A DNA stretch of 64,000 nt from a virus (Duplodnaviria > Caudoviricetes): positions 32,001 to 96,000 of IMG/VR virus record IMGVR_UViG_3300005326_000040; one strand, 5' to 3'. The stretch's first letter is position 1, and every line of letters starts with the position of its first letter. The translations under genes and the position numbers were made by a program. Below the pieces are notes generated by a model. It did no database searches and was not told where the DNA came from. It saw nothing but the letters and a program-made list of their open reading frames with translations. Shown here piece after piece: positions 40,174-59,808 of this stretch.

Positions 40174-40257
40174 AGTGAAGATAATTCTTTCATTCGATTG
40201 TGGAGCATTCACAAGTAACAGGGTGTGAGTGGATTGAATCTCCAATCCAACTCTAAC

Positions 40258-40363
40258 TGGGTTTAGCTCAAGGGTAGAGCAACTTATGTTTCAAGGTCCT
40301 TCCTAACCAGCGGGACACCGAAACATAGGGATATATCGAGTTCAAGTCTCGATAGCCCAGCCA
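40258..40363 (+). ncRNA. tRNA-like RNA with greatly extended anticodon arm
   Basis: D arm GCTC-AAGGGTA-GAGC, 10-bp stem CTTATGTTTC/GAAACATAGG enclosing a GTCC/GGAC hairpin, T arm ATCGAG-TTCAAGT-CTCGAT, 3' AGCCCA-G-CCA. Confidence 0.75.
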
Positions 40364-41528: not shown

Positions 41529-41666
41529 TGCCAGATATCGTCCCCACTTCCTTTTCCCGCAAGGATTAGGGGGTCAAGTTGAAGAAGGACAAACCGGGAT
41601 GAACAATCCTGGAGGGACGGAGAGCTTTCGAGTTCTCAGGTGGTTCAATTCCATCATCTGGCACCA
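41529..41666 (+). ncRNA. Expanded tRNA-like RNA (138 nt)
   Basis: Acceptor GCCAGAT/ATCTGGC-A-CCA, T arm GGTGG-TTCAATT-CCATC, variable-arm hairpin GAGAGCT-TTCG-AGTTCTC, GTCCC/GGGAC long-range stem. Confidence 0.75.
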
Positions 41667-49552: not shown

Positions 49553-49640
49553 GGCCCGCTGGTGGAAATGGTGAGACACACAGGATTTAAAATCCTGCGG
49601 CCGAAAGGTCATAAGGGTTCGACTCCCTTGCGGGCTACCA
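49553..49640 (+). tRNA. trnL: tRNA-Leu (anticodon TAA)
   Basis: GGCCCGC/GCGGGCT acceptor, CAGGA-TTTAAAA-TCCTG anticodon arm, long variable arm, AAGGG-TTCGACT-CCCTT T arm, A73 and encoded CCA. Confidence 0.95.
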
Positions 49641-50025: not shown

Positions 50026-50105
50026 GGGGCGATAAGGTATATGGGGATATCTATTAGAATGTAATAGATATCTTTTAGAAGGTTCAAATCCTTCTAGGCC
50101 CGCCA
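50026..50105 (+). ncRNA. tRNA-like element with an 11-bp perfect stem in place of the anticodon arm
   Basis: GATATCTATTA-GAATG-TAATAGATATC, T arm (TA)GAAGG-TTCAAAT-CCTTC(TA), 3' GGCCC-G-CCA, weak D arm. Confidence 0.65.
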
Positions 50106-50134
50106 ACGAATTGGGATTTGAAAGGAACGATGAG

Positions 50135-50476
50135 ATGCCGGTTCACAAGTGGAGTGAAATCAAGAATAAAATGGCGCCAGAACGTCAGGAGAGACTTCGC
50201 GCCGAAACTGACAAGCTGCTCACTGAGATTGAGAACAAGGTAACGGTGTGCAGTTTGCGTGAACTGCGTGAGATGGTTGGCAAGACTCAAGCTGAGGTTG
50301 GCAGCAGTCTTGGAATGACTCAATCTCAAGTCTCCAAGCTCGAACGGCGCAAGGACCATCTTCTTTCAACGATTCGGCGTTATGTTGAAGCGTTGGGAGG
50401 CGAGCTTCAAGTGAGTGTGATTATTGAGGGGAAAAGAATAACGTTGGTTGGAGGACAAAAGCTTCATCGAGAGTGA
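50135..50476 (+). CDS. XRE-family HTH protein, HigA-like antitoxin
   Basis: LRELREMVGKTQAEVGSSLGMTQSQVSKLERRKDHLLSTIRRYVEALGGELQV. Confidence 0.88.
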   Translation: MPVHKWSEIKNKMAPERQERLRAETDKLLTEIENKVTVCSLRELREMVGKTQAEVGSSLGMTQSQVSKLERRKDHLLSTIRRYVEALGGELQVSVIIEGKRITLVGGQKLHRE

Positions 50477-51770: not shown

Positions 51771-51847
51771 AGGTAGAGTAAATGGGAACACAAGGCCCGA
51801 CCAATCATTCGATTGGGGTGAAGGTTCGAATCCTTCTCTATCTTCTA
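51771..51847 (+). ncRNA. Anticodon-less tRNA-like RNA (ATTC tetraloop)
   Basis: Acceptor AGGTAGA/TCTATCT, hairpin CCAATC-ATTC-GATTGG, T arm GAAGG-TTCGAAT-CCTTC, 3' T-CTA, degenerate D arm. Confidence 0.75.
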
Positions 51848-51863
51848 ATGAAAGGGGTTTGAA

Positions 51864-52160
51864 ATGCTAGTTGTAACGACACAATCGGGGCGATACATAG
51901 TGTTTGATGTCACTGAGTATCGACCTGGGATTCCTGTTCCACCAATCTATAACTTCTTCGCGGAGGGAGGAAAGAAACCTTTCTTCTATGAACCGCTTGA
52001 TTGGTTTCTTCGCGGTGAGAGGCCGTATCCGCCGCCATACAGCGCCTATCCGATGATGTTTTCCGAAGGATATGCGACGCAGGACGAGGCGCTGAGAGCG
52101 GCGGAAAAAACGGAAGCAATGAGAGATAGTTTGAGAGCAAAACTCTCTAGAAGGGAGTAA
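51864..52160 (+). CDS. Hypothetical protein, paralog of 53958-54218
   Basis: Shared SGRxxxFD, FFxPxDW and GYAxxxEALxAAE motifs. Confidence 0.75.
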   Translation: MLVVTTQSGRYIVFDVTEYRPGIPVPPIYNFFAEGGKKPFFYEPLDWFLRGERPYPPPYSAYPMMFSEGYATQDEALRAAEKTEAMRDSLRAKLSRRE

Positions 52161-52164
52161 GGTT

Positions 52165-52911
52165 ATGGCAAAGTACGAACCATACAGTCATGTTGTTTTC
52201 TTCCAGCGCAACGGCGATTCTGTGGAAACGTTGGCAGCTGGGTCCATCGACCCCGAAACCAACGAAATCAAAGACTTCACGATTACATACTTTGAAGATG
52301 GGAAACCGTTTCCCGCTACGAAGTATGAAGTCATCTTGGCGAAGGAATACTTCGTCGATGGTTTCCACGGAATGATGGCGCAGTTGGAGGAAGAGGATAA
52401 GCTCAGTTACGTATTGAGCTTTGCGACGGGGAGATATGAAGAACGGGAAACGAGCCCGGTTCTTGTAGTTTTTGGAAAGAAGTGCGCGTACAAACTGGTG
52501 ACCGATCTCAACAACAAGTTGGTAGAGGCTCGTCTGCACGAGGAAGAGGGGGACTTTAGGTATAGCGAAAAAGGTGCGGATGACTTCGCTGCGGCGGTCG
52601 AAAAGGAATACGGAATCACCATCACGTTCGCAAGCAATTATGGTGGTGCTTTCGATGTTACCTTGGTCCCGACGACGCTCAACATGCAAGGCCGAATTGA
52701 ACGAGCCAAGGCAGAAGCGCTGAGGGATGCGGCGGCTCTCGTGTTTGTTTGTAAGGATCGTTCTCCTGTTGAGTTGCGAGAGAAGATTATCGAGTTGATT
52801 CCGCCGTCACAATTGGACAAATGTTCCAAGTGTCATGGCAAGAGGGGCGGCGTACCCGGCAACGAAAACGTTGAAGATAGTGGGCTGCTTGTTTGCGACT
52901 ATTGCTCATAG
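52165..52911 (+). CDS. Hypothetical protein with C-terminal Zn-binding motif
   Basis: 248 aa, ends CSKC..GGVPGNEN....VCDYC. Confidence 0.8.
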   Translation: MAKYEPYSHVVFFQRNGDSVETLAAGSIDPETNEIKDFTITYFEDGKPFPATKYEVILAKEYFVDGFHGMMAQLEEEDKLSYVLSFATGRYEERETSPVLVVFGKKCAYKLVTDLNNKLVEARLHEEEGDFRYSEKGADDFAAAVEKEYGITITFASNYGGAFDVTLVPTTLNMQGRIERAKAEALRDAAALVFVCKDRSPVELREKIIELIPPSQLDKCSKCHGKRGGVPGNENVEDSGLLVCDYCS

Positions 52912-52924
52912 AAAGAGTGAAGCC

Positions 52925-53254
52925 ATGAATTCAAAGAATCAAGTGTCATCACCTTCTCGCACATACGTTGCGGTATGTAACAAGCCGAACTTCGACGGGC
53001 ACTACTTCAGGAAGTTCGATCTTCCAGAGAGCGTGCTCAATGGAATGCAATTGAATGATGGAACCTATATGGAAGGTTCTCATTCGTTCATTCTTCGCAA
53101 CAATACGGAGGATGCGTCTTGGTACTTCTTGAGCTTCCTCAATCGTGTTGCTTGCATTGATTGCGTCATCACTTGGGAGGATTATAACTCCCTGGAGAAC
53201 CAGGACGAACTCAACGCGAAGATAGAGGAAGAGTGGGCGAAGACGGGCAGTTGA
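52925..53254 (+). CDS. Hypothetical protein
   Basis: 109 aa. Confidence 0.7.
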   Translation: MNSKNQVSSPSRTYVAVCNKPNFDGHYFRKFDLPESVLNGMQLNDGTYMEGSHSFILRNNTEDASWYFLSFLNRVACIDCVITWEDYNSLENQDELNAKIEEEWAKTGS

Positions 53255-53265
53255 AGGGAGAAGTG

Positions 53266-53547
53266 ATGGGCAGACAAGTTCACACCATGCACCTTATCAA
53301 TTCCCTGGAAGAGTTGTTGTCTTGGGCGGGAGTTGATAAGTGGGAAACAGAAGAAGAGCGAGTCAAACATCGGAGGTTCTGGACGATTCGTTGGAACAGA
53401 CACGCTGAGAAACATGGGAATGTTCCCATGAAGATGAAGTGTGACGTATGCTCTGGAAAGGAGCGCAAGAACGATATCAAACACGGGAGGTTCAAGCCTT
53501 CTCAGCCGGATAAGGCATTGAGGAAAGAAAGAAAGGGAGAAGAGTAA
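53266..53547 (+). CDS. Hypothetical basic protein
   Basis: 93 aa. Confidence 0.65.
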   Translation: MGRQVHTMHLINSLEELLSWAGVDKWETEEERVKHRRFWTIRWNRHAEKHGNVPMKMKCDVCSGKERKNDIKHGRFKPSQPDKALRKERKGEE

Positions 53548-53738
53548 TGCCGCTAACAATCAACGATATGATTGCTCTGCTTGTGCGGATGAAGTCAGAG
53601 TCTCCGAAGGGAGGGAACACTGAGGTCTGTGTTCTTTTGCCTCACGAAGGGTACAAAGGGGTTACGGATGTGATGGCAGACAGGGACAATAATGGGGTTC
53701 CTGTGGTGCTTTTGATTGTTGGCGGGGAGTTGAGATAG
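53547..53738 (+). CDS. Hypothetical protein
   Basis: 63 aa, TAATG coupling. Confidence 0.65.
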   Translation: MPLTINDMIALLVRMKSESPKGGNTEVCVLLPHEGYKGVTDVMADRDNNGVPVVLLIVGGELR

Positions 53739-53739
53739 T

Positions 53740-53940
53740 ATGGGAAAGGATTCAAAAGAGTTCACTGTCGTCTATGACGATGTGGTTTTGCGTGACGATG
53801 AGACCATTGAGATTCACGCAAAACCTGGGACGGGATTGGTGTGCGGCGCTGCCAACGATTGCACAAGATTGAAAGGGCACAAAGGAAAACACGCTAATCT
53901 TTACAACGGGAGAAGGTGGGGAGGATATATTAGTTACTAA
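53740..53940 (+). CDS. Hypothetical protein
   Basis: 66 aa, Cys/His motif C...C...GHxGxH. Confidence 0.65.
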   Translation: MGKDSKEFTVVYDDVVLRDDETIEIHAKPGTGLVCGAANDCTRLKGHKGKHANLYNGRRWGGYISY

Positions 53941-53957
53941 GGAGCGTAGGAATTAAA

Positions 53958-54218
53958 ATGAAAACCAAGAGCGGTCGGCATGTCATTTTCGACGCAACTT
54001 CCCCCGAGTTCTTGAAGGGGCAGTTGTTGTCCAAAGACTTTGTGGATGCGGCTCCGAATGGGGAGCCGTGGTTCTTCCAACCTGCTGATTGGAACGAGGA
54101 AAACTTCTGGGGAGGATTGTACAGCAGGAAGTCTCCTTTCGCTTATTCTCCTGGGTATGCTTCTGCGGAAGAAGCATTGGAGGCGGCTGAGGGTTGGGAG
54201 AGCAGGAGAAAATCATGA
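53958..54218 (+). CDS. Hypothetical protein, paralog of 51864-52160
   Basis: Shared motifs with 51864-52160. Confidence 0.75.
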   Translation: MKTKSGRHVIFDATSPEFLKGQLLSKDFVDAAPNGEPWFFQPADWNEENFWGGLYSRKSPFAYSPGYASAEEALEAAEGWESRRKS

Positions 54219-54526
54219 GCAACGGTCGAGCGATGGTTTTGATTGATGGAGTTCACAAGTGGGTGGACTCTGACTTCCTGCGCTTGATTGAGGGGCAGGA
54301 CAGTCGCGTAGAGTATCTAGGGGGAACGAAGAGTGGGGAGGAGGGATGCATCGAAGTGATTGGGGAGAATGTGTACTTCAGCGCATTCCCCGACAACGAT
54401 AGCGGACAGACCAACCTTCAGGCTTTCATCAAGCCTCTCTCGGAAAAGGAGAAGGCGTTGGTGGAAGCTGGGGTTGAGTGTTCGCCCAAAGAGGTTCAGG
54501 AACTAAGGAGCTACTGGGTACTATGA
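54215..54526 (+). CDS. Hypothetical protein, paralog of 44727-45038
   Basis: WVDS and GEEGCIEV motifs. Confidence 0.8.
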   Translation: MSNGRAMVLIDGVHKWVDSDFLRLIEGQDSRVEYLGGTKSGEEGCIEVIGENVYFSAFPDNDSGQTNLQAFIKPLSEKEKALVEAGVECSPKEVQELRSYWVL

Positions 54527-55011
54527 GTCCATATGCAGGCTGTCAAGGGCAAAGCATAGGAAGAGTGCTTCACTTTCTCTACCATTACTGTGGACTTCTC
54601 GTTGCTGAATATGCAGAAATCGGAGACCGTGAAGTAAAGTATAATGGCAAGAAGATCGCCTTCTTTTACTTCAGGGGAGACGTTCCGATATTCGAGTTCG
54701 TCAACCCAGATTACAATGAAGTACAGTCGTTCAAGCGAGACGAGGCGATTCGAGATGGGGCGCCTCGGATTCCTGAAGGCACGAGAGAGGCTGTAAAGGA
54801 AGCGATTCTGGCATTCTGTAAGATTGGGGATGCCAACTATCTGGAATATCCAACCAGCCACGTTGCTGCAAGAAGCATCTCCAAGGCAGCAAGTGTTCTT
54901 GAGACGTGGTTCGACGGAAACCTCAGGAACATGCCGAAAGAAGACTATCTCCGCGCAATCGAACTCGGGGTGAAAGCCATGAGGGAGATTGAGTCAATCA
55001 GACCCAAATAG
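54523..55011 (+). CDS. Hypothetical protein
   Basis: 162 aa, ATGA coupling. Confidence 0.75.
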   Translation: MSPYAGCQGQSIGRVLHFLYHYCGLLVAEYAEIGDREVKYNGKKIAFFYFRGDVPIFEFVNPDYNEVQSFKRDEAIRDGAPRIPEGTREAVKEAILAFCKIGDANYLEYPTSHVAARSISKAASVLETWFDGNLRNMPKEDYLRAIELGVKAMREIESIRPK

Positions 55012-55023
55012 GAGGGTAGCAGA

Positions 55024-55326
55024 ATGAAGTTGAACACAACGAAGAAGTATTGGTTCAAGGATCCCAAGACGAAGGAGGTAGATGTGCCATTGGCAGAATT
55101 GATTGTGCAGTTGACGGACAAGATTCTGCCATTCACGTCGGAGTTGACGATCAACAACTTCTCGGCGGAAACGGCAGAAATCAGGTTGACTCAGGTCAAC
55201 GGGTTCTTCTGCAAGAGAACCTTCACCATCACCGGGACACCCGAGGAAATCAAGCTCCTCGGGGAAACGATTCAGGTGTATACGCGGCGGCATCCCCTTC
55301 TCAAGAAGGAGGGGCGGCGGCGATGA
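55024..55326 (+). CDS. Hypothetical protein
   Basis: 100 aa, GGAGG RBS. Confidence 0.75.
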   Translation: MKLNTTKKYWFKDPKTKEVDVPLAELIVQLTDKILPFTSELTINNFSAETAEIRLTQVNGFFCKRTFTITGTPEEIKLLGETIQVYTRRHPLLKKEGRRR

Positions 55327-55469
55327 GTCGAAAGATTCTTTCCAGTGACCTTTACTGGCCGCCCAGTAATCTTCACTGGTACGGCGGCTACTACTATCGG
55401 TGAATAAAAACATGAGCCAAAGAATCGAGAACGGTCCAAACATAAGCTAGGTGAACGGGGAATACTGGA

Positions 55470-55823
55470 ATGGTTCTAGCCCCGCTTCACCGCTTATACA
55501 GAGGACCATTGGAAAAGAACAAGAAGCGTGGAAACCGCCGCTCTCAGAGTGAAACCATCGTAGCCCGCCGCCATCACAGTCACAAGAGGGACAATGATAG
55601 AATTGTTCAGAACTGCTGGGGCGGTAGGGAACAGTATCTTGCGAAAATCGTGATTCCTCCCAGAGGAGAATGTTCACCGAACATCTACCGAAAGTGGAAT
55701 GGTACTTGTGATTGTTGTCATTGTAAGTGGAATCAAGTATGGGATCACGAGGAAGTAAAGCGCGAGAGAGCGGCAGGAAAGGAAGAAGTTCTGAAAGGGC
55801 TTCTTGAATACATGGGCAATTAG
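55470..55823 (+). CDS. Hypothetical basic, Cys-containing protein
   Basis: 117 aa, start uncertain. Confidence 0.55.
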   Translation: MVLAPLHRLYRGPLEKNKKRGNRRSQSETIVARRHHSHKRDNDRIVQNCWGGREQYLAKIVIPPRGECSPNIYRKWNGTCDCCHCKWNQVWDHEEVKRERAAGKEEVLKGLLEYMGN

Positions 55824-55932
55824 TAAACCGCAGGAGGCGCCATGAGAATTCTGACGAAGATGTAGCGATTAGGCTTAGTTAGTTCCTGCTCTTTAGGCTC
55901 ACCGAATCACTGCTAGAAAAAGTCAATACAAA

Positions 55933-56006
55933 TGGCAAGTAGCTCAATTGGATAGAGCGTCAGCGTTCGCTGAAGGTTATAGGTTCAAATCCTATCTTGC
56001 CTACTA
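55933..56006 (+). ncRNA. Anticodon-less tRNA-like RNA (GTTC tetraloop)
   Basis: GGCAAG/CTTGCC acceptor, TA, GCTC-AATTGGATA-GAGC, TCAGC-GTTC-GCTGA, AGGTT, ATAGG-TTCAAAT-CCTAT, A-CTA. Confidence 0.9.
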
Positions 56007-56101
56007 GGAAAGGAGGAAGCAATGTACAGAATTGAATTTATCTAGGTGGATGAATCTTTTGGGTGGTCCTTGGGTTCACTCCACCGGAAGCAGGAAAAAC
56101 C

Positions 56102-56374
56102 ATGCGATACGGACTGCATATCGAGTTGAGCGATACGGTAATCGAGCAGACTGAAACCCACACGAGATGTTCTTCCTGGCACAATATCCACAAGAACTGC
56201 AAGAGTCTGGAGGAAGCAGACGAGATTTGCTACAAGATTCTCTCTACGTTCTCTAAGGGTTTCGGAAGGGATGAGTATGTGTCATTCAACCAAGAAAGGA
56301 GAAGCTTCTATACCTTCCGAGAAGGTGGCTCGATTGTTGGTGTAGCCAACTGCCGTGTTACGACCCTGAATTGA
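56102..56374 (+). CDS. Hypothetical protein
   Basis: 90 aa. Confidence 0.65.
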   Translation: MRYGLHIELSDTVIEQTETHTRCSSWHNIHKNCKSLEEADEICYKILSTFSKGFGRDEYVSFNQERRSFYTFREGGSIVGVANCRVTTLN

Positions 56375-56387
56375 AAACCCGCCCAAA

Positions 56388-56457
56388 AGATAAGTAGCTC
56401 AATGGTAGAGCGCCAGCATTCGCTGGGGTGCAGGTTCGAGCCCTGCCTTATCTTCTA
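56388..56457 (+). ncRNA. Anticodon-less tRNA-like RNA (ATTC tetraloop)
   Basis: AGATAAG/CTTATCT acceptor, TA, GCTC-AATGGTA-GAGC, CCAGC-ATTC-GCTGG, GGT, GCAGG-TTCGAGC-CCTGC, T-CTA. Confidence 0.9.
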
Positions 56458-58973: not shown

Positions 58974-59037
58974 GGTTGAATTGGGAGCACAAGGGAGGTG
59001 ACTACCCTTGTGCTTTACGATAGATTGGAAACATACA

Positions 59038-59808
59038 ATGGAAGCTAACGTTTCAACGCAAGCTGGTATTGAGCAGTTCTTCTCGGGGTACAAAGAAGCA
59101 CAACAGCTACTTGAAGCTTATGAAAGGAAGCTACTTGATCGTGACAGAAAGGAGATGCAATCGGGGCAGCTTCGGGGTGAATGTTTGTTGGAAAGGCTTC
59201 ATTGGTTGAAGGAACCAACACATTACATTCACAAGATTTTCAATGTGCTTCGCAGTAGCGACCCTGAAGTGAACGCAAGAAAGTCCAGCAGTGTATATTT
59301 GTATGAGCCATCGAATGTTTCATGGCTCATTGAGATGGTTCGGCGGCTTCGATTGACGAAGAAGGATGTTTTCTACGATTTGGGGTCGGGCCGTGGCGTA
59401 ACCATCAACCTCATGGGTTTGCTTACCAAAGCTCAATTCAAGGGAGTTGAGTTGATGCCTGAGTATGCTCGTGATTCCGAAAGAATTACGAAGGAGATGA
59501 AAATCAAGAACGTTACTACCATTCAAAGTAACGTTGTTGATGTGGACTTTTCGGATGGAACGGTTTTCTATACGTTCAATCCTTTTGGGAGCGCAACAAT
59601 CCGAAGGGTAGTGAAAAACATTCAGAAAATTGCAGAAAAGAGAGCGGTTCGGGTTGTGGCTGTCTGCAACAGCGAAGAGTTTGAGCCTTATCCATGGCTT
59701 CGGCGTTGGAGTTTGTATGAAGGCTGGACCAACGGAGCAGAATACGACCGATATCGCTCCGATTACAATCGCGTGCATATTTTCGAGAGCACGCTGCACG
59801 GAGAATGA
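59038..59808 (+). CDS. Class I SAM-dependent methyltransferase (DOT1-like)
   Basis: YEPS..., DVFYDLGSGRG motif I, FKGVELMP, SNVVDVDFSDGTVFYTFNPF. Confidence 0.88.
   Translation: MEANVSTQAGIEQFFSGYKEAQQLLEAYERKLLDRDRKEMQSGQLRGECLLERLHWLKEPTHYIHKIFNVLRSSDPEVNARKSSSVYLYEPSNVSWLIEMVRRLRLTKKDVFYDLGSGRGVTINLMGLLTKAQFKGVELMPEYARDSERITKEMKIKNVTTIQSNVVDVDFSDGTVFYTFNPFGSATIRRVVKNIQKIAEKRAVRVVAVCNSEEFEPYPWLRRWSLYEGWTNGAEYDRYRSDYNRVHIFESTLHGE

What the first reader, a model, noticed from the sequence alone, without database searches (positions are those of the whole stretch)
51771..56457. Family of anticodon-less tRNAs with an RUUC tetraloop in place of the anticodon loop
Seen in sequence: 55933-56006 and 56388-56457 have textbook acceptor, D (GCTC..GAGC) and T arms, but the anticodon arm is YCAGC-RTTC-GCTGR, a 5-bp stem closed by a 4-nt loop. 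51771-51847 carries the same ATTC loop. Stems differ between copies yet stay paired: T-A vs C-G at the arm base; T stems ATAGG/CCTAT, GCAGG/CCTGC and GAAGG/CCTTC; three different acceptor stems. All three end N-CTA rather than CCA and sit just 5' of an RBS. Established: a 7-nt loop is required for decoding, while RNase P, RNase Z, CCA enzyme and EF-Tu read the acceptor/T (elbow) half. Inference: these are selected, non-decoding tRNA mimics. They could be mRNA-processing punctuation, decoys for tRNA-targeting defences (acceptor-end toxins such as MenT/AbiEii NTases or toxSAS/CapRel), or sinks for synthetases and EF-Tu.
Basis: partly seen in the sequence, partly recalled or inferred. Interest (0 to 1): 0.93.

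Follow-up and report, generated by a model that had tools for sequence, protein, structure and literature searches.

The report
Anticodon-less tRNA look-alikes in jumbo phage
A 338-kb uncultured groundwater phage carries six genes for RNAs shaped like tRNAs whose decoding loop is shrunk to 3-4 bases, so they cannot read codons yet are clearly kept by selection, most likely as cut-here signals or tRNA decoys.

Summary
B (55933-56006) and C (56388-56457) pass Rfam's tRNA threshold, at 57 and 53 bits, but have a 5-bp anticodon stem closed by a 4-nt loop. A (51771-51847) has the same C(AUUC)G cap and good acceptor and T arms. It has no D stem and is sub-threshold for Rfam (19 bits).

The family has six members. 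Three more lie downstream of the window in the same 338-kb phage genome, with loops UUUC, AAG and AUUC. A model built from three copies finds the other three at E 1e-13 to 8e-8. 97% of stem cells pair, and 17 of 21 pairs show compensatory changes. The closing C-G pair is invariant.

N-CTA ends and a position about 20 nt before a start codon are shared by the phage's genuine tRNAs.

No relatives of the phage and no RNA data exist, so function is inferred. My preferred reading is tRNA-shaped processing modules inside polycistronic transcripts that release non-decoding tRNA bodies. A trans-acting decoy role is the main rival.

Similar short-loop tRNA look-alikes occur in many other phage contigs. 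This scan has noted the class before on other DNA. I found no paper describing it.

The parts
51771..51847 (+). Element A: tRNA-like RNA without a D stem. Acceptor 51771-77 / 51837-43 (G3:U70), discriminator T 51844, CTA 51845-47.
   Evidence: R1 35.5 bits, E 8e-8. Rfam tRNA 19.2 bits, below the gathering score. Sequence read.
51801..51816 (+). A, capped anticodon arm: CCAATC-ATTC-GATTGG (6 bp + 4 nt).
   Evidence: Sequence; R1 alignment.
51820..51836 (+). A, T arm: GAAGG-TTCGAAT-CCTTC.
55933..56006 (+). Element B: full cloverleaf with a U1.U72 mismatch, discriminator A 56003, CTA 56004-06.
   Evidence: Rfam RF00005 57.0 bits. ARAGORN 'tRNA-???'. R1 91.4 bits. Cloverleaf is the minimum-energy fold.
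55960..55973 (+). B, capped anticodon arm: TCAGC-GTTC-GCTGA (5 bp + 4 nt).
56388..56457 (+). Element C: full cloverleaf, 3-nt variable region, discriminator T 56454, CTA 56455-57. It lies 13 nt after the upstream stop, and the AGGAGG RBS follows directly.
   Evidence: Rfam RF00005 52.9 bits. R1 89 bits. Cloverleaf is the minimum-energy fold. Context.
56413..56426 (+). C, capped anticodon arm: CCAGC-ATTC-GCTGG (5 bp + 4 nt).
51864..55326 (+). Run of about 11 tightly abutting or overlapping + strand ORFs between A and B. No Pfam family was found in those tested. This is the stretch the elements would punctuate.
   Evidence: ORF list; stop/start overlaps read; Pfam negative; no excess of promoter- or terminator-like sites.

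Best explanation
The elements are a family of six selected, non-decoding tRNA-shaped RNA genes. Three are in the window. Three lie downstream at genome 99075, 110581 and 112577. All sit between co-directional small genes of a jumbo phage.

Proposed mechanism (inferred):
1. They are transcribed as part of long polycistronic RNAs.
2. Their intact acceptor/T-arm/elbow half is recognised by the host's tRNA end-processing enzymes. RNase P cuts at +1. An RNase Z-type cut follows the discriminator, which is permitted because the trailer is CUA rather than CCA.
3. The operon RNA is thereby split into mRNAs whose new 5' ends lie 10-24 nt before the next start codon.
4. A tRNA body of about 70 nt is released. 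The host, or the phage's own PolyA_pol-family (CCA-adding-type) nucleotidyltransferase, can then add CCA.
5. The anticodon loop has been replaced by a closed 3-4-nt cap. The released RNA therefore cannot decode, cannot miscode, and offers no target to anticodon nucleases.

Shown: the structure, its covariation, the loop truncation, the intergenic co-oriented placement, and the presence of the NTase gene. Inferred: transcription, cleavage, CCA addition and the benefit.
For: - Structure and selection.
- All six lie solitary between ORFs on the + strand. A, C, E and F lie 12-19 nt after the upstream stop and 10-24 nt before the next start. D overlaps its upstream stop.
- Genuine singleton tRNAs (Gln, Thr, Leu) have the same 19-23-nt spacing to the next start, so tRNA-shaped spacers are a general design of this genome.
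- Most of the phage's genuine tRNAs sit in clusters at 27.6-28.1, 162.3-164 and 231-236.6 kb. None of the six mimics does.
- There is no excess of sigma-70 promoter or terminator matches in 49-58 kb. ORFs between A and B abut or overlap. Co-transcription is therefore likely.
- The same region holds other tRNA-like elements with intact acceptor and T arms but anticodon arms of arbitrary length. Examples are a 13-bp hairpin at 50027-50105 and a 10-bp stem with a 27-nt insert at 40257-40363. This indicates that only the top half is constrained.
- The phage encodes a PolyA_pol-family (CCA-adding-type) NTase.
- Precedent: plant mitochondrial t-elements are tRNA-like structures cut by RNase P and RNase Z that define mRNA ends (PMC3790967).
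Against: - There are no RNA data, so neither transcription nor cleavage is shown.
- Punctuation does not explain why UUC is conserved in 5 of 6 loops. It also does not explain why the D arm and elbow nucleotides are kept so canonical in B, C and D.
- In other phages, 34 of 93 comparable short-loop elements lie within 300 nt of another tRNA, in arrays where punctuation is superfluous. This argues that the RNA product itself matters.
- Most gene junctions in the region lack such elements.
- The host, and hence its RNase Z or RNase E pathway, is unknown.
Confidence: 0.45

Rival explanations
1. Trans-acting decoys or sponges. The released CCA-tailed tRNA bodies accumulate. They titrate factors that read the acceptor end or elbow of tRNAs, such as defence toxins that modify or cleave the 3' end (MenT/AbiEii nucleotidyltransferases, CapRel-type pyrophosphokinases, GNAT acetyltransferases) or tRNA-binding nucleases. 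They stay invisible to the ribosome and to anticodon nucleases.
For: - The full L-shape, not just a minihelix, is conserved in five of six: U8, A14, G18G19 and the T-loop, with paired D and anticodon stems.
- Six different acceptor stems and three discriminators would mimic several tRNA species.
- Comparable short-loop elements in other phages often sit inside tRNA arrays, where a cis role is unnecessary.
- The phage invests in tRNA-end care, with a PolyA_pol-family (CCA-adding-type) NTase and PTH2.
- The loop UUC is conserved beyond what drift predicts.
Against: - No defence target is identified and no expression level is known.
- The elements are dispersed between ORFs rather than placed with the tRNA clusters or behind a strong promoter.
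- PTH2 is not enriched in phage records that carry short-loop elements: 1 of 50 against 3 of 50 controls.
Confidence: 0.25
2. Uncleaved structural insulators. The compact tRNA fold stays in the mRNA and blocks 3'-5' or 5'-3' exonucleases, or uncouples translation between cistrons. It would act like REP or intercistronic stabiliser hairpins.
For: Tight intercistronic placement. Stable folds with z-scores of -1.8 to -3.8.
Against: A simple hairpin would do the same job. Conservation of tRNA-specific tertiary nucleotides and a 7-bp acceptor with a free discriminator points to recognition by tRNA enzymes.
Confidence: 0.1
3. Loop-specific ribonucleoprotein. The C(NUUC)G cap on a tRNA scaffold is the binding site for a phage or host protein, and the tRNA body serves as a stable, processable scaffold.
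For: UUC is invariant in the five 4-nt loops and the C-G closing pair is invariant in all six, although the stems have diverged. Loops in other phages' short-loop elements are unrelated, so the motif is specific to this phage.
Against: D has an AAG triloop. No partner protein is identifiable, since the neighbouring ORFs have no Pfam family. Stem length varies from 5 to 7 bp.
Confidence: 0.08
4. Decaying tRNA pseudogenes without function.
For: Phage genomes hold many off-size tRNA genes. A has lost its D stem. A, E and F fall below Rfam's tRNA threshold.
Against: Six copies share the same kind of lesion, a loop cut to 3-4 nt and closed by C-G. Meanwhile 97% of stem cells stay paired, and 17 of 21 pairs show double-sided changes at only 60-74% overall identity. 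Neutral decay would break stems as often as loops.
Confidence: 0.07
5. Amino-acid carriers for a non-ribosomal or tmRNA-like use. They would be charged through acceptor-stem identity alone, for example by AlaRS via G3:U70.
For: A and F carry G3:U70 with G2:C71, and F also has A73.
Against: The other four lack G3:U70. Discriminators differ (U, A, U, A, G, A). ARAGORN finds no tmRNA and there is no mRNA-like domain. No transferase gene is seen nearby.
Confidence: 0.05

Closest known systems
Canonical bacterial/phage tRNA (Rfam RF00005)
   Same: 7-bp acceptor, D arm with A14/G18G19, 5-bp T stem with a TTCRANN loop, a discriminator, and a 5-bp anticodon stem. B, C and D score 53-57 bits.
   Different: The anticodon loop is 3-4 nt instead of 7, with no U33, anticodon or R37, so decoding is impossible. 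A lacks a D stem, and A, E and F are below threshold.
Plant mitochondrial t-elements / mitochondrial tRNA punctuation (PMC3790967)
   Same: tRNA-like folds embedded in polycistronic RNA next to coding regions. They are recognised through the acceptor/T half by RNase P and RNase Z, and they define mRNA ends.
   Different: Different domain of life and no homology. Cleavage is not shown here. The phage elements keep a far more complete cloverleaf.
mascRNA / MEN-beta tRNA-like small RNAs of vertebrates (own knowledge)
   Same: Non-decoding tRNA-like RNA cut from a longer transcript by RNase P and RNase Z and given CCA; the anticodon loop is not conserved.
   Different: Eukaryotic nuclear lncRNA context, a single copy per locus, and no relation in sequence.
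Engineered 'tRNA scaffold' RNAs (Ponchon and Dardel; own knowledge)
   Same: A tRNA body whose anticodon arm is replaced by another closed helix is still processed and accumulates stably in bacteria. This shows that the design works.
   Different: It is artificial. Here the design is natural and multi-copy.
Phage tRNAs that evade tRNA-targeting defences (T5 tRNA-Lys vs PARIS, tRNA-Tyr vs retron/PtuAB; own knowledge, and named in earlier scan note e1-4091282)
   Same: Phage-encoded, altered in the anticodon loop, and plausibly shaped by anticodon nucleases.
   Different: Those tRNAs still decode. These have no anticodon at all.
tmRNA tRNA-like domain and YrlA Y RNA
   Same: tRNA mimicry without an anticodon. 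The tmRNA domain lacks a D stem and uses G3:U70, as A does.
   Different: There is no mRNA-like domain or tag (ARAGORN) and no Ro-binding helix. The ends are at the acceptor rather than the anticodon side. The phage's TROVE gene is about 135 kb away.

Membership tests
tRNA (RF00005) | Score at or above Rfam's gathering threshold (29 bits) | tested here: inconclusive
   B scores 57.0, C 52.9 and D 54.5 bits, which pass. A scores 19.2 bits. E's best match is tRNA-Sec at 25.2 bits. F has no match. These three fail.
tRNA (RF00005) | Cloverleaf with four paired arms | tested here: met
   Met for B, C, D, E and F. A has no D stem. 97.1% of stem cells pair.
tRNA (RF00005) | 7-nt anticodon loop with U33, a 3-nt anticodon and purine 37 | tested here: not met
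   The loops are AUUC (three times), GUUC, UUUC and AAG. Opening pairs turns a 4-nt loop into 6 or 8 nt, never 7. Only D could open to 7 nt, and then it has C33 and a 3-bp stem.
tRNA (RF00005) | Aminoacylation and ribosomal decoding | not testable with these tools
   This needs biochemistry.
t-elements / tRNA punctuation | tRNA-like fold inside a polycistronic transcript, directly flanked by coding regions on the same strand | tested here: met
   Gaps of -2 to 19 nt to the upstream stop for five of six. Gaps of 10-24 nt to the next start for four of six. No promoter or terminator excess. Co-transcription itself is inferred.
t-elements / tRNA punctuation | Mapped RNA ends coincide with the element's borders; cleavage by RNase P and RNase Z | not testable with these tools
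   Only one DNA run (groundwater metagenome) holds the sequence, and there is no RNA run.
tmRNA | tRNA-like domain with G3:U70 plus an mRNA-like domain encoding a tag | tested here: not met
   ARAGORN finds no tmRNA in the window. G3:U70 occurs only in A and F. The elements are 67-74 nt with no insert.
YrlA / Y RNA | Ro60-binding helix, ends on the anticodon side, gene beside rsr | tested here: not met
   No Rfam Y-RNA or YrlA match. The TROVE gene lies at genome 248.7 kb, about 135 kb from the nearest member.
Defence-evading phage tRNAs | Retains a functional anticodon loop and decoding while resisting cleavage | tested here: not met
   There is no anticodon loop.

The most novel reading that the evidence does not exclude
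A jumbo phage deploys a multi-copy family of capped-anticodon tRNA bodies as RNA-based counter-defence. They would be abundant, CCA-tailed and translation-inert decoys. They would soak up host immune effectors or nucleases that attack the acceptor end or elbow of tRNAs. The conserved C(NUUC)G cap would make them uncleavable by anticodon nucleases. The same principle would operate in the many other phages that carry short-loop tRNA look-alikes.
Probability: 0.2. Interest if true: 0.9.

Novelty: new variant of a known kind. Interest (0 to 1): 0.7.

Why it matters
Phage tRNA genes are usually read as codon-usage aids or, more recently, as replacements for tRNAs cut by host defences. Here six tRNA-shaped genes in one genome cannot decode, yet selection keeps them. 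Look-alikes occur in many other phage contigs and bacterial genomes. This points to a use of the tRNA fold in phages that does not involve decoding.

If the elements are processing signals, a bacterial virus would use mitochondrion-style tRNA punctuation. If they are decoys, they would be a new RNA-based anti-defence principle.

There is also a practical point. Annotation pipelines either miss these genes (C, A, E and F are not called by ARAGORN) or mislabel them (D is called tRNA-Leu). Phage tRNA censuses and codon-adaptation analyses are therefore contaminated.

Tried and rejected
1. Orthologues in related phages: none could be found.
   - blastn of 49.4-57 kb against 50,697 phage records gave one hit, an ordinary tRNA-Arg.
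   - Protein-seeded scans of IMG/VR with the 153-aa and 860-aa ORFs found nothing.
   - The 153-aa ORF has only itself among 5.8 billion proteins.
   - The 860-aa ORF is absent from five other jumbo-phage records.
   - A glycosyltransferase finds only relatives below 40% identity in diverse jumbo phages.

2. Exact pattern for the B/C anticodon arm in IMG/VR: one chance hit inside a coding region.

3. Pattern for D arm + C-NTTC-G cap + T arm.
   - IMG/VR: 0 hits.
   - 185,579 prokaryote genomes: 0 hits.
   - Metagenome contigs: 7 hits. L131 has a clean CCTCC-GTTC-GGAGG cap. A marine trio, L125/L129/L130, has a compensatory T-stem change.
   - These are unrelated lineages, so the NUUC cap is essentially private to this phage.

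4. PTH2 link suggested by an earlier scan note. This phage does encode PTH2, but 14 kb from the nearest element. PTH2 occurs in 1 of 50 phage records with short-loop elements against 3 of 50 controls. There is no enrichment and the test has low power.

5. RtcB: absent.

6. RNA evidence: one DNA run only.

7. Common origin: the six are no closer to each other (60-73% identity) than to the phage's genuine tRNAs. Descent from one ancestral mimic and six independent truncations cannot be told apart.

8. Neighbouring proteins: 20 ORFs around the elements gave Pfam families for only two, an HTH protein and a DOT1-like methyltransferase.

9. Literature: four full-text searches found no description of anticodon-less phage tRNA genes.

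Full report
**Setting**

The window is positions 32001-96000 of a 338,055-bp IMG/VR virus record that CheckV estimates as 97% complete. The only public run holding the stretch is a groundwater metagenome, as DNA. The phage is very isolated. Most large ORFs have no Pfam or PHROG family, and no close relative was found by DNA or protein.

**The observation**

Rfam's tRNA model matches B (55933-56003, 57.0 bits) and C (56388-56454, 52.9 bits). The only other match in the window is a normal tRNA-Leu(UAA) at 49553-49640. In both alignments the seven loop positions of the model are replaced by four bases. ARAGORN reports B as 'tRNA-???' and misses C.

Read directly, both have:
- a 7-bp acceptor stem (B with a U1.U72 mismatch);
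- U8 and a GCTC/GAGC D stem, with A14 and G18G19 in the loop;
- a 5-bp T stem with a TTCRANN loop, and a discriminator;
- an anticodon arm of exactly 14 nt: TCAGC-GTTC-GCTGA in B and CCAGC-ATTC-GCTGG in C.

A (51771-51847) shares the ATTC cap on a 6-bp stem. It has a good acceptor (AGGTAGA/TCTATCT, with G3:U70) and a good T arm. It has no D stem, scores only 19.2 bits with Rfam, and does not fold to a clean cloverleaf at minimum energy. A is a real but degenerate member.

**The family is larger**

A scan of the whole genome for T arm plus acceptor, followed by a covariance model built from B, C and D (R1), finds six members.

| Element | Position | R1 score | Note |
|---|---|---|---|
| B | window 55933 | 91 bits | training copy |
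| C | window 56388 | 89 bits | training copy |
| D | genome 110581 | 89 bits | training copy; loop AAG |
| F | genome 112577 | 55.3 bits, E 1e-13 | TTCCC-ATTC-GGGAA; G3:U70, A73 |
| E | genome 99075 | 39.8 bits, E 5e-9 | 7-bp stem, TTTC loop, ends G-CCA |
| A | window 51771 | 35.5 bits, E 8e-8 | no D stem |

An earlier first-stage note on the same genome had listed the same six. I checked each one here.

On the model-guided alignment, which also holds a seventh weak match at 50027-50105:
- 97.1% of stem cells form standard pairs, against 73% in column shuffles and 39-49% with slid partners;
- 17 of 21 pairs show changes on both sides (0 of 500 shuffles reach this);
- the pair closing the anticodon stem is C-G in all six.

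The loops are AUUC three times, GUUC, UUUC and AAG.

The six are only 60-73% identical to each other, no closer than to the phage's genuine tRNAs. The covariation could therefore be inherited from six different tRNA ancestors, or it could have arisen after a single truncation. Under either history, six copies share the same lesion and an invariant closing pair while their stems are intact. That is not neutral decay.

**What is not special**

ARAGORN finds 19 tRNA-type genes in the genome. They include a UAA-suppressor-type tRNA; an intron-bearing one appears only in the Rfam scan.
- Five genuine tRNAs are also followed by CTA after the discriminator: Gln-UUG, Lys, Arg-CCU, Met and Arg-ACG.
- In a control sample of 133 normal-length phage tRNAs from IMG/VR, CTA is the third commonest trailer.
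- Genuine singleton tRNAs (Gln, Thr, Leu) lie 19-23 nt upstream of the next start codon, like the mimics.

The N-CTA end and RBS adjacency therefore describe how this phage packs tRNA-shaped genes in general. They do not set the mimics apart.

**Context**

All six are solitary, on the + strand, between small ORFs.
- A, C, E and F sit 12-19 nt after the upstream stop and 10-24 nt before the next start.
- D overlaps its upstream stop.
- B lies in a 280-nt spacer with mini-ORFs.

Between A and B lie about 11 ORFs with abutting or overlapping stops and starts. Promoter-like and terminator-like matches are not above shuffle expectation in 49-58 kb. By contrast, most genuine tRNAs sit in three clusters elsewhere.

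The same 72-113-kb region also holds tRNA-like elements with intact acceptor and T arms and CCA, but with anticodon arms of arbitrary size:
- 50027-50105, a 13-bp hairpin;
- 40257-40363, a 10-bp stem enclosing 27 nt;
- 41530-41663, no D arm and a roughly 100-nt insert.

Across all these elements the constant part is the acceptor/T/elbow half. The anticodon end is closed but free in length.

Elsewhere the phage encodes a PolyA_pol-family (CCA-adding-type) nucleotidyltransferase, a PTH2 peptidyl-tRNA hydrolase and a TROVE/Ro60 protein. It has no RtcB.

**Beyond this phage**

I scanned IMG/VR for GTAGCTCA..GAGC, then 20-24 nt (normal is 26-27), then GGTTCRA.
- 93 of 120 hits have an intact acceptor and T stem, most with a 4-6-bp stem and a 3-5-nt loop.
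- Several families recur across contigs with the same acceptor stem but different short anticodon arms. Examples are GGTGATG...CATCACT-T-CTA and GCAGACG...CGTCTGC-A-CCA.
- 34 of 93 lie within 300 nt of another tRNA.

The same pattern also saturates in prokaryote genomes.

The specific C-NTTC-G cap with this D arm is absent from IMG/VR and from 185,579 prokaryote genomes. It is rare in metagenome contigs.

This scan's earlier follow-ups on other genomes describe the same class of anticodon-less phage tRNA mimics. Four full-text literature searches found no paper on it.

**Mechanism**

Established knowledge:
- RNase P, RNase Z, the CCA enzyme and EF-Tu read the acceptor/T half of a tRNA.
- An encoded CCA inhibits RNase Z.
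- tRNA bodies with a replaced anticodon arm are processed and stable in bacteria.
- Plant mitochondrial t-elements are tRNA-like signals cut by RNase P and RNase Z that define mRNA ends (PMC3790967).

Combining this with the placement data, my preferred reading (0.45) is that the elements are excised from polycistronic RNA. Excision would split the message just upstream of the next ribosome-binding site and release a non-decoding tRNA body that can receive CCA. The capped loop would prevent miscoding and remove the target of anticodon nucleases.

The main rival (0.25) is that the released RNA is the point, as a decoy for factors that attack or bind the tRNA acceptor end. Three things favour it: the fully canonical elbow, the conserved loop UUC, and the array-embedded look-alikes in other phages.

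The minor rivals are an uncleaved stabiliser, a loop-specific RNP, a pseudogene, and an alanine-type carrier (G3:U70 in A and F only).

None of these can be settled without RNA ends or biochemistry.

**Verdict**

The core inference, selected and non-decoding, is supported. The specific functions are open. Two of the cited hallmarks are generic to this genome.

The thing is a new variant of a known kind, non-decoding tRNA-like RNAs. It appears to be undescribed for phages, and it has been noted repeatedly by this scan on other DNA.

Noticed in passing
window 50027-50105 (+): tRNA-like element with acceptor GGGC../..GCCC, T arm GAAGG-TTCAAAT-CCTTC and an encoded G-CCA. A perfect 13-bp hairpin with a 5-nt loop stands where the anticodon arm should be. 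R1 scores it 16.4 bits. An HTH-domain ORF (50111-50476) follows.
   Followed up: partly
window 40257-40363 and 41530-41663 (+): Two larger tRNA-like RNAs ending in CCA. The first has canonical acceptor, D and T arms and a 10-bp 'anticodon' stem enclosing 27 nt. The second has an acceptor and T arm, no D arm, and a multibranched insert of about 100 nt.
   Followed up: partly
genome 28046-28120; 27815-27943; 231136-231277 (outside the window): Three odd tRNA genes: a tRNA with anticodon UUA (would read the UAA stop), a tRNA with a 57-nt insertion in the anticodon loop, and a 142-nt class-II-like tRNA-shaped RNA ending A-CTA.
   Followed up: no
window 55843-55866 and 56023-56046 (+): Seven-codon mini-ORFs (MRILTKM*, MYRIEFI*), each with its own Shine-Dalgarno sequence, flank element B. 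Both end in TAG and run into hairpins. The strong RBS after B serves only the second mini-ORF.
   Followed up: no
genome 127090-127494; 296282-296665; 248764-249177: The phage encodes PTH2 (100 bits), a PolyA_pol-family (CCA-adding-type) nucleotidyltransferase (55 bits) and a TROVE/Ro60 protein. It has no RtcB.
   Followed up: partly
L017, L022, L033, L042, L054, L057, L082, L095, L099, L107, L119 (IMG/VR): A recurrent phage tRNA-like family has an invariant acceptor GCAGACG/CGTCTGC and ends in A-CCA or G-CCA. Its anticodon arms are short and differ between members (CCCC-CGAAGT-GGGG, CCAC-GTAGA-GTGG, or no stem). It often lies next to tRNA-Gly(UCC).
   Followed up: no
L028, L110, L026, L061, L113, L097, L006 (IMG/VR): Temperate-type phages with ERF/SSB or Rad52-like recombination modules carry one or two tRNA look-alikes with T-rich 3-4-nt loops (CATGT-TTT-ACATG and similar). 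These sit in an ORF-poor early region. Acceptor stems covary between contigs.
   Followed up: partly
window 59008-59808 (+): ORF with a DOT1-like / class I methyltransferase domain (PF08123, E 9e-9) a few genes downstream of C.
   Followed up: no
genome-wide: The trailer after the discriminator is CTA, mostly CTAA or CTAG, in 5 genuine tRNAs and 5 of 6 mimics. This may mark RNase Z-type 3' processing, or it may place a stop codon right after each tRNA-shaped gene.
   Followed up: partly
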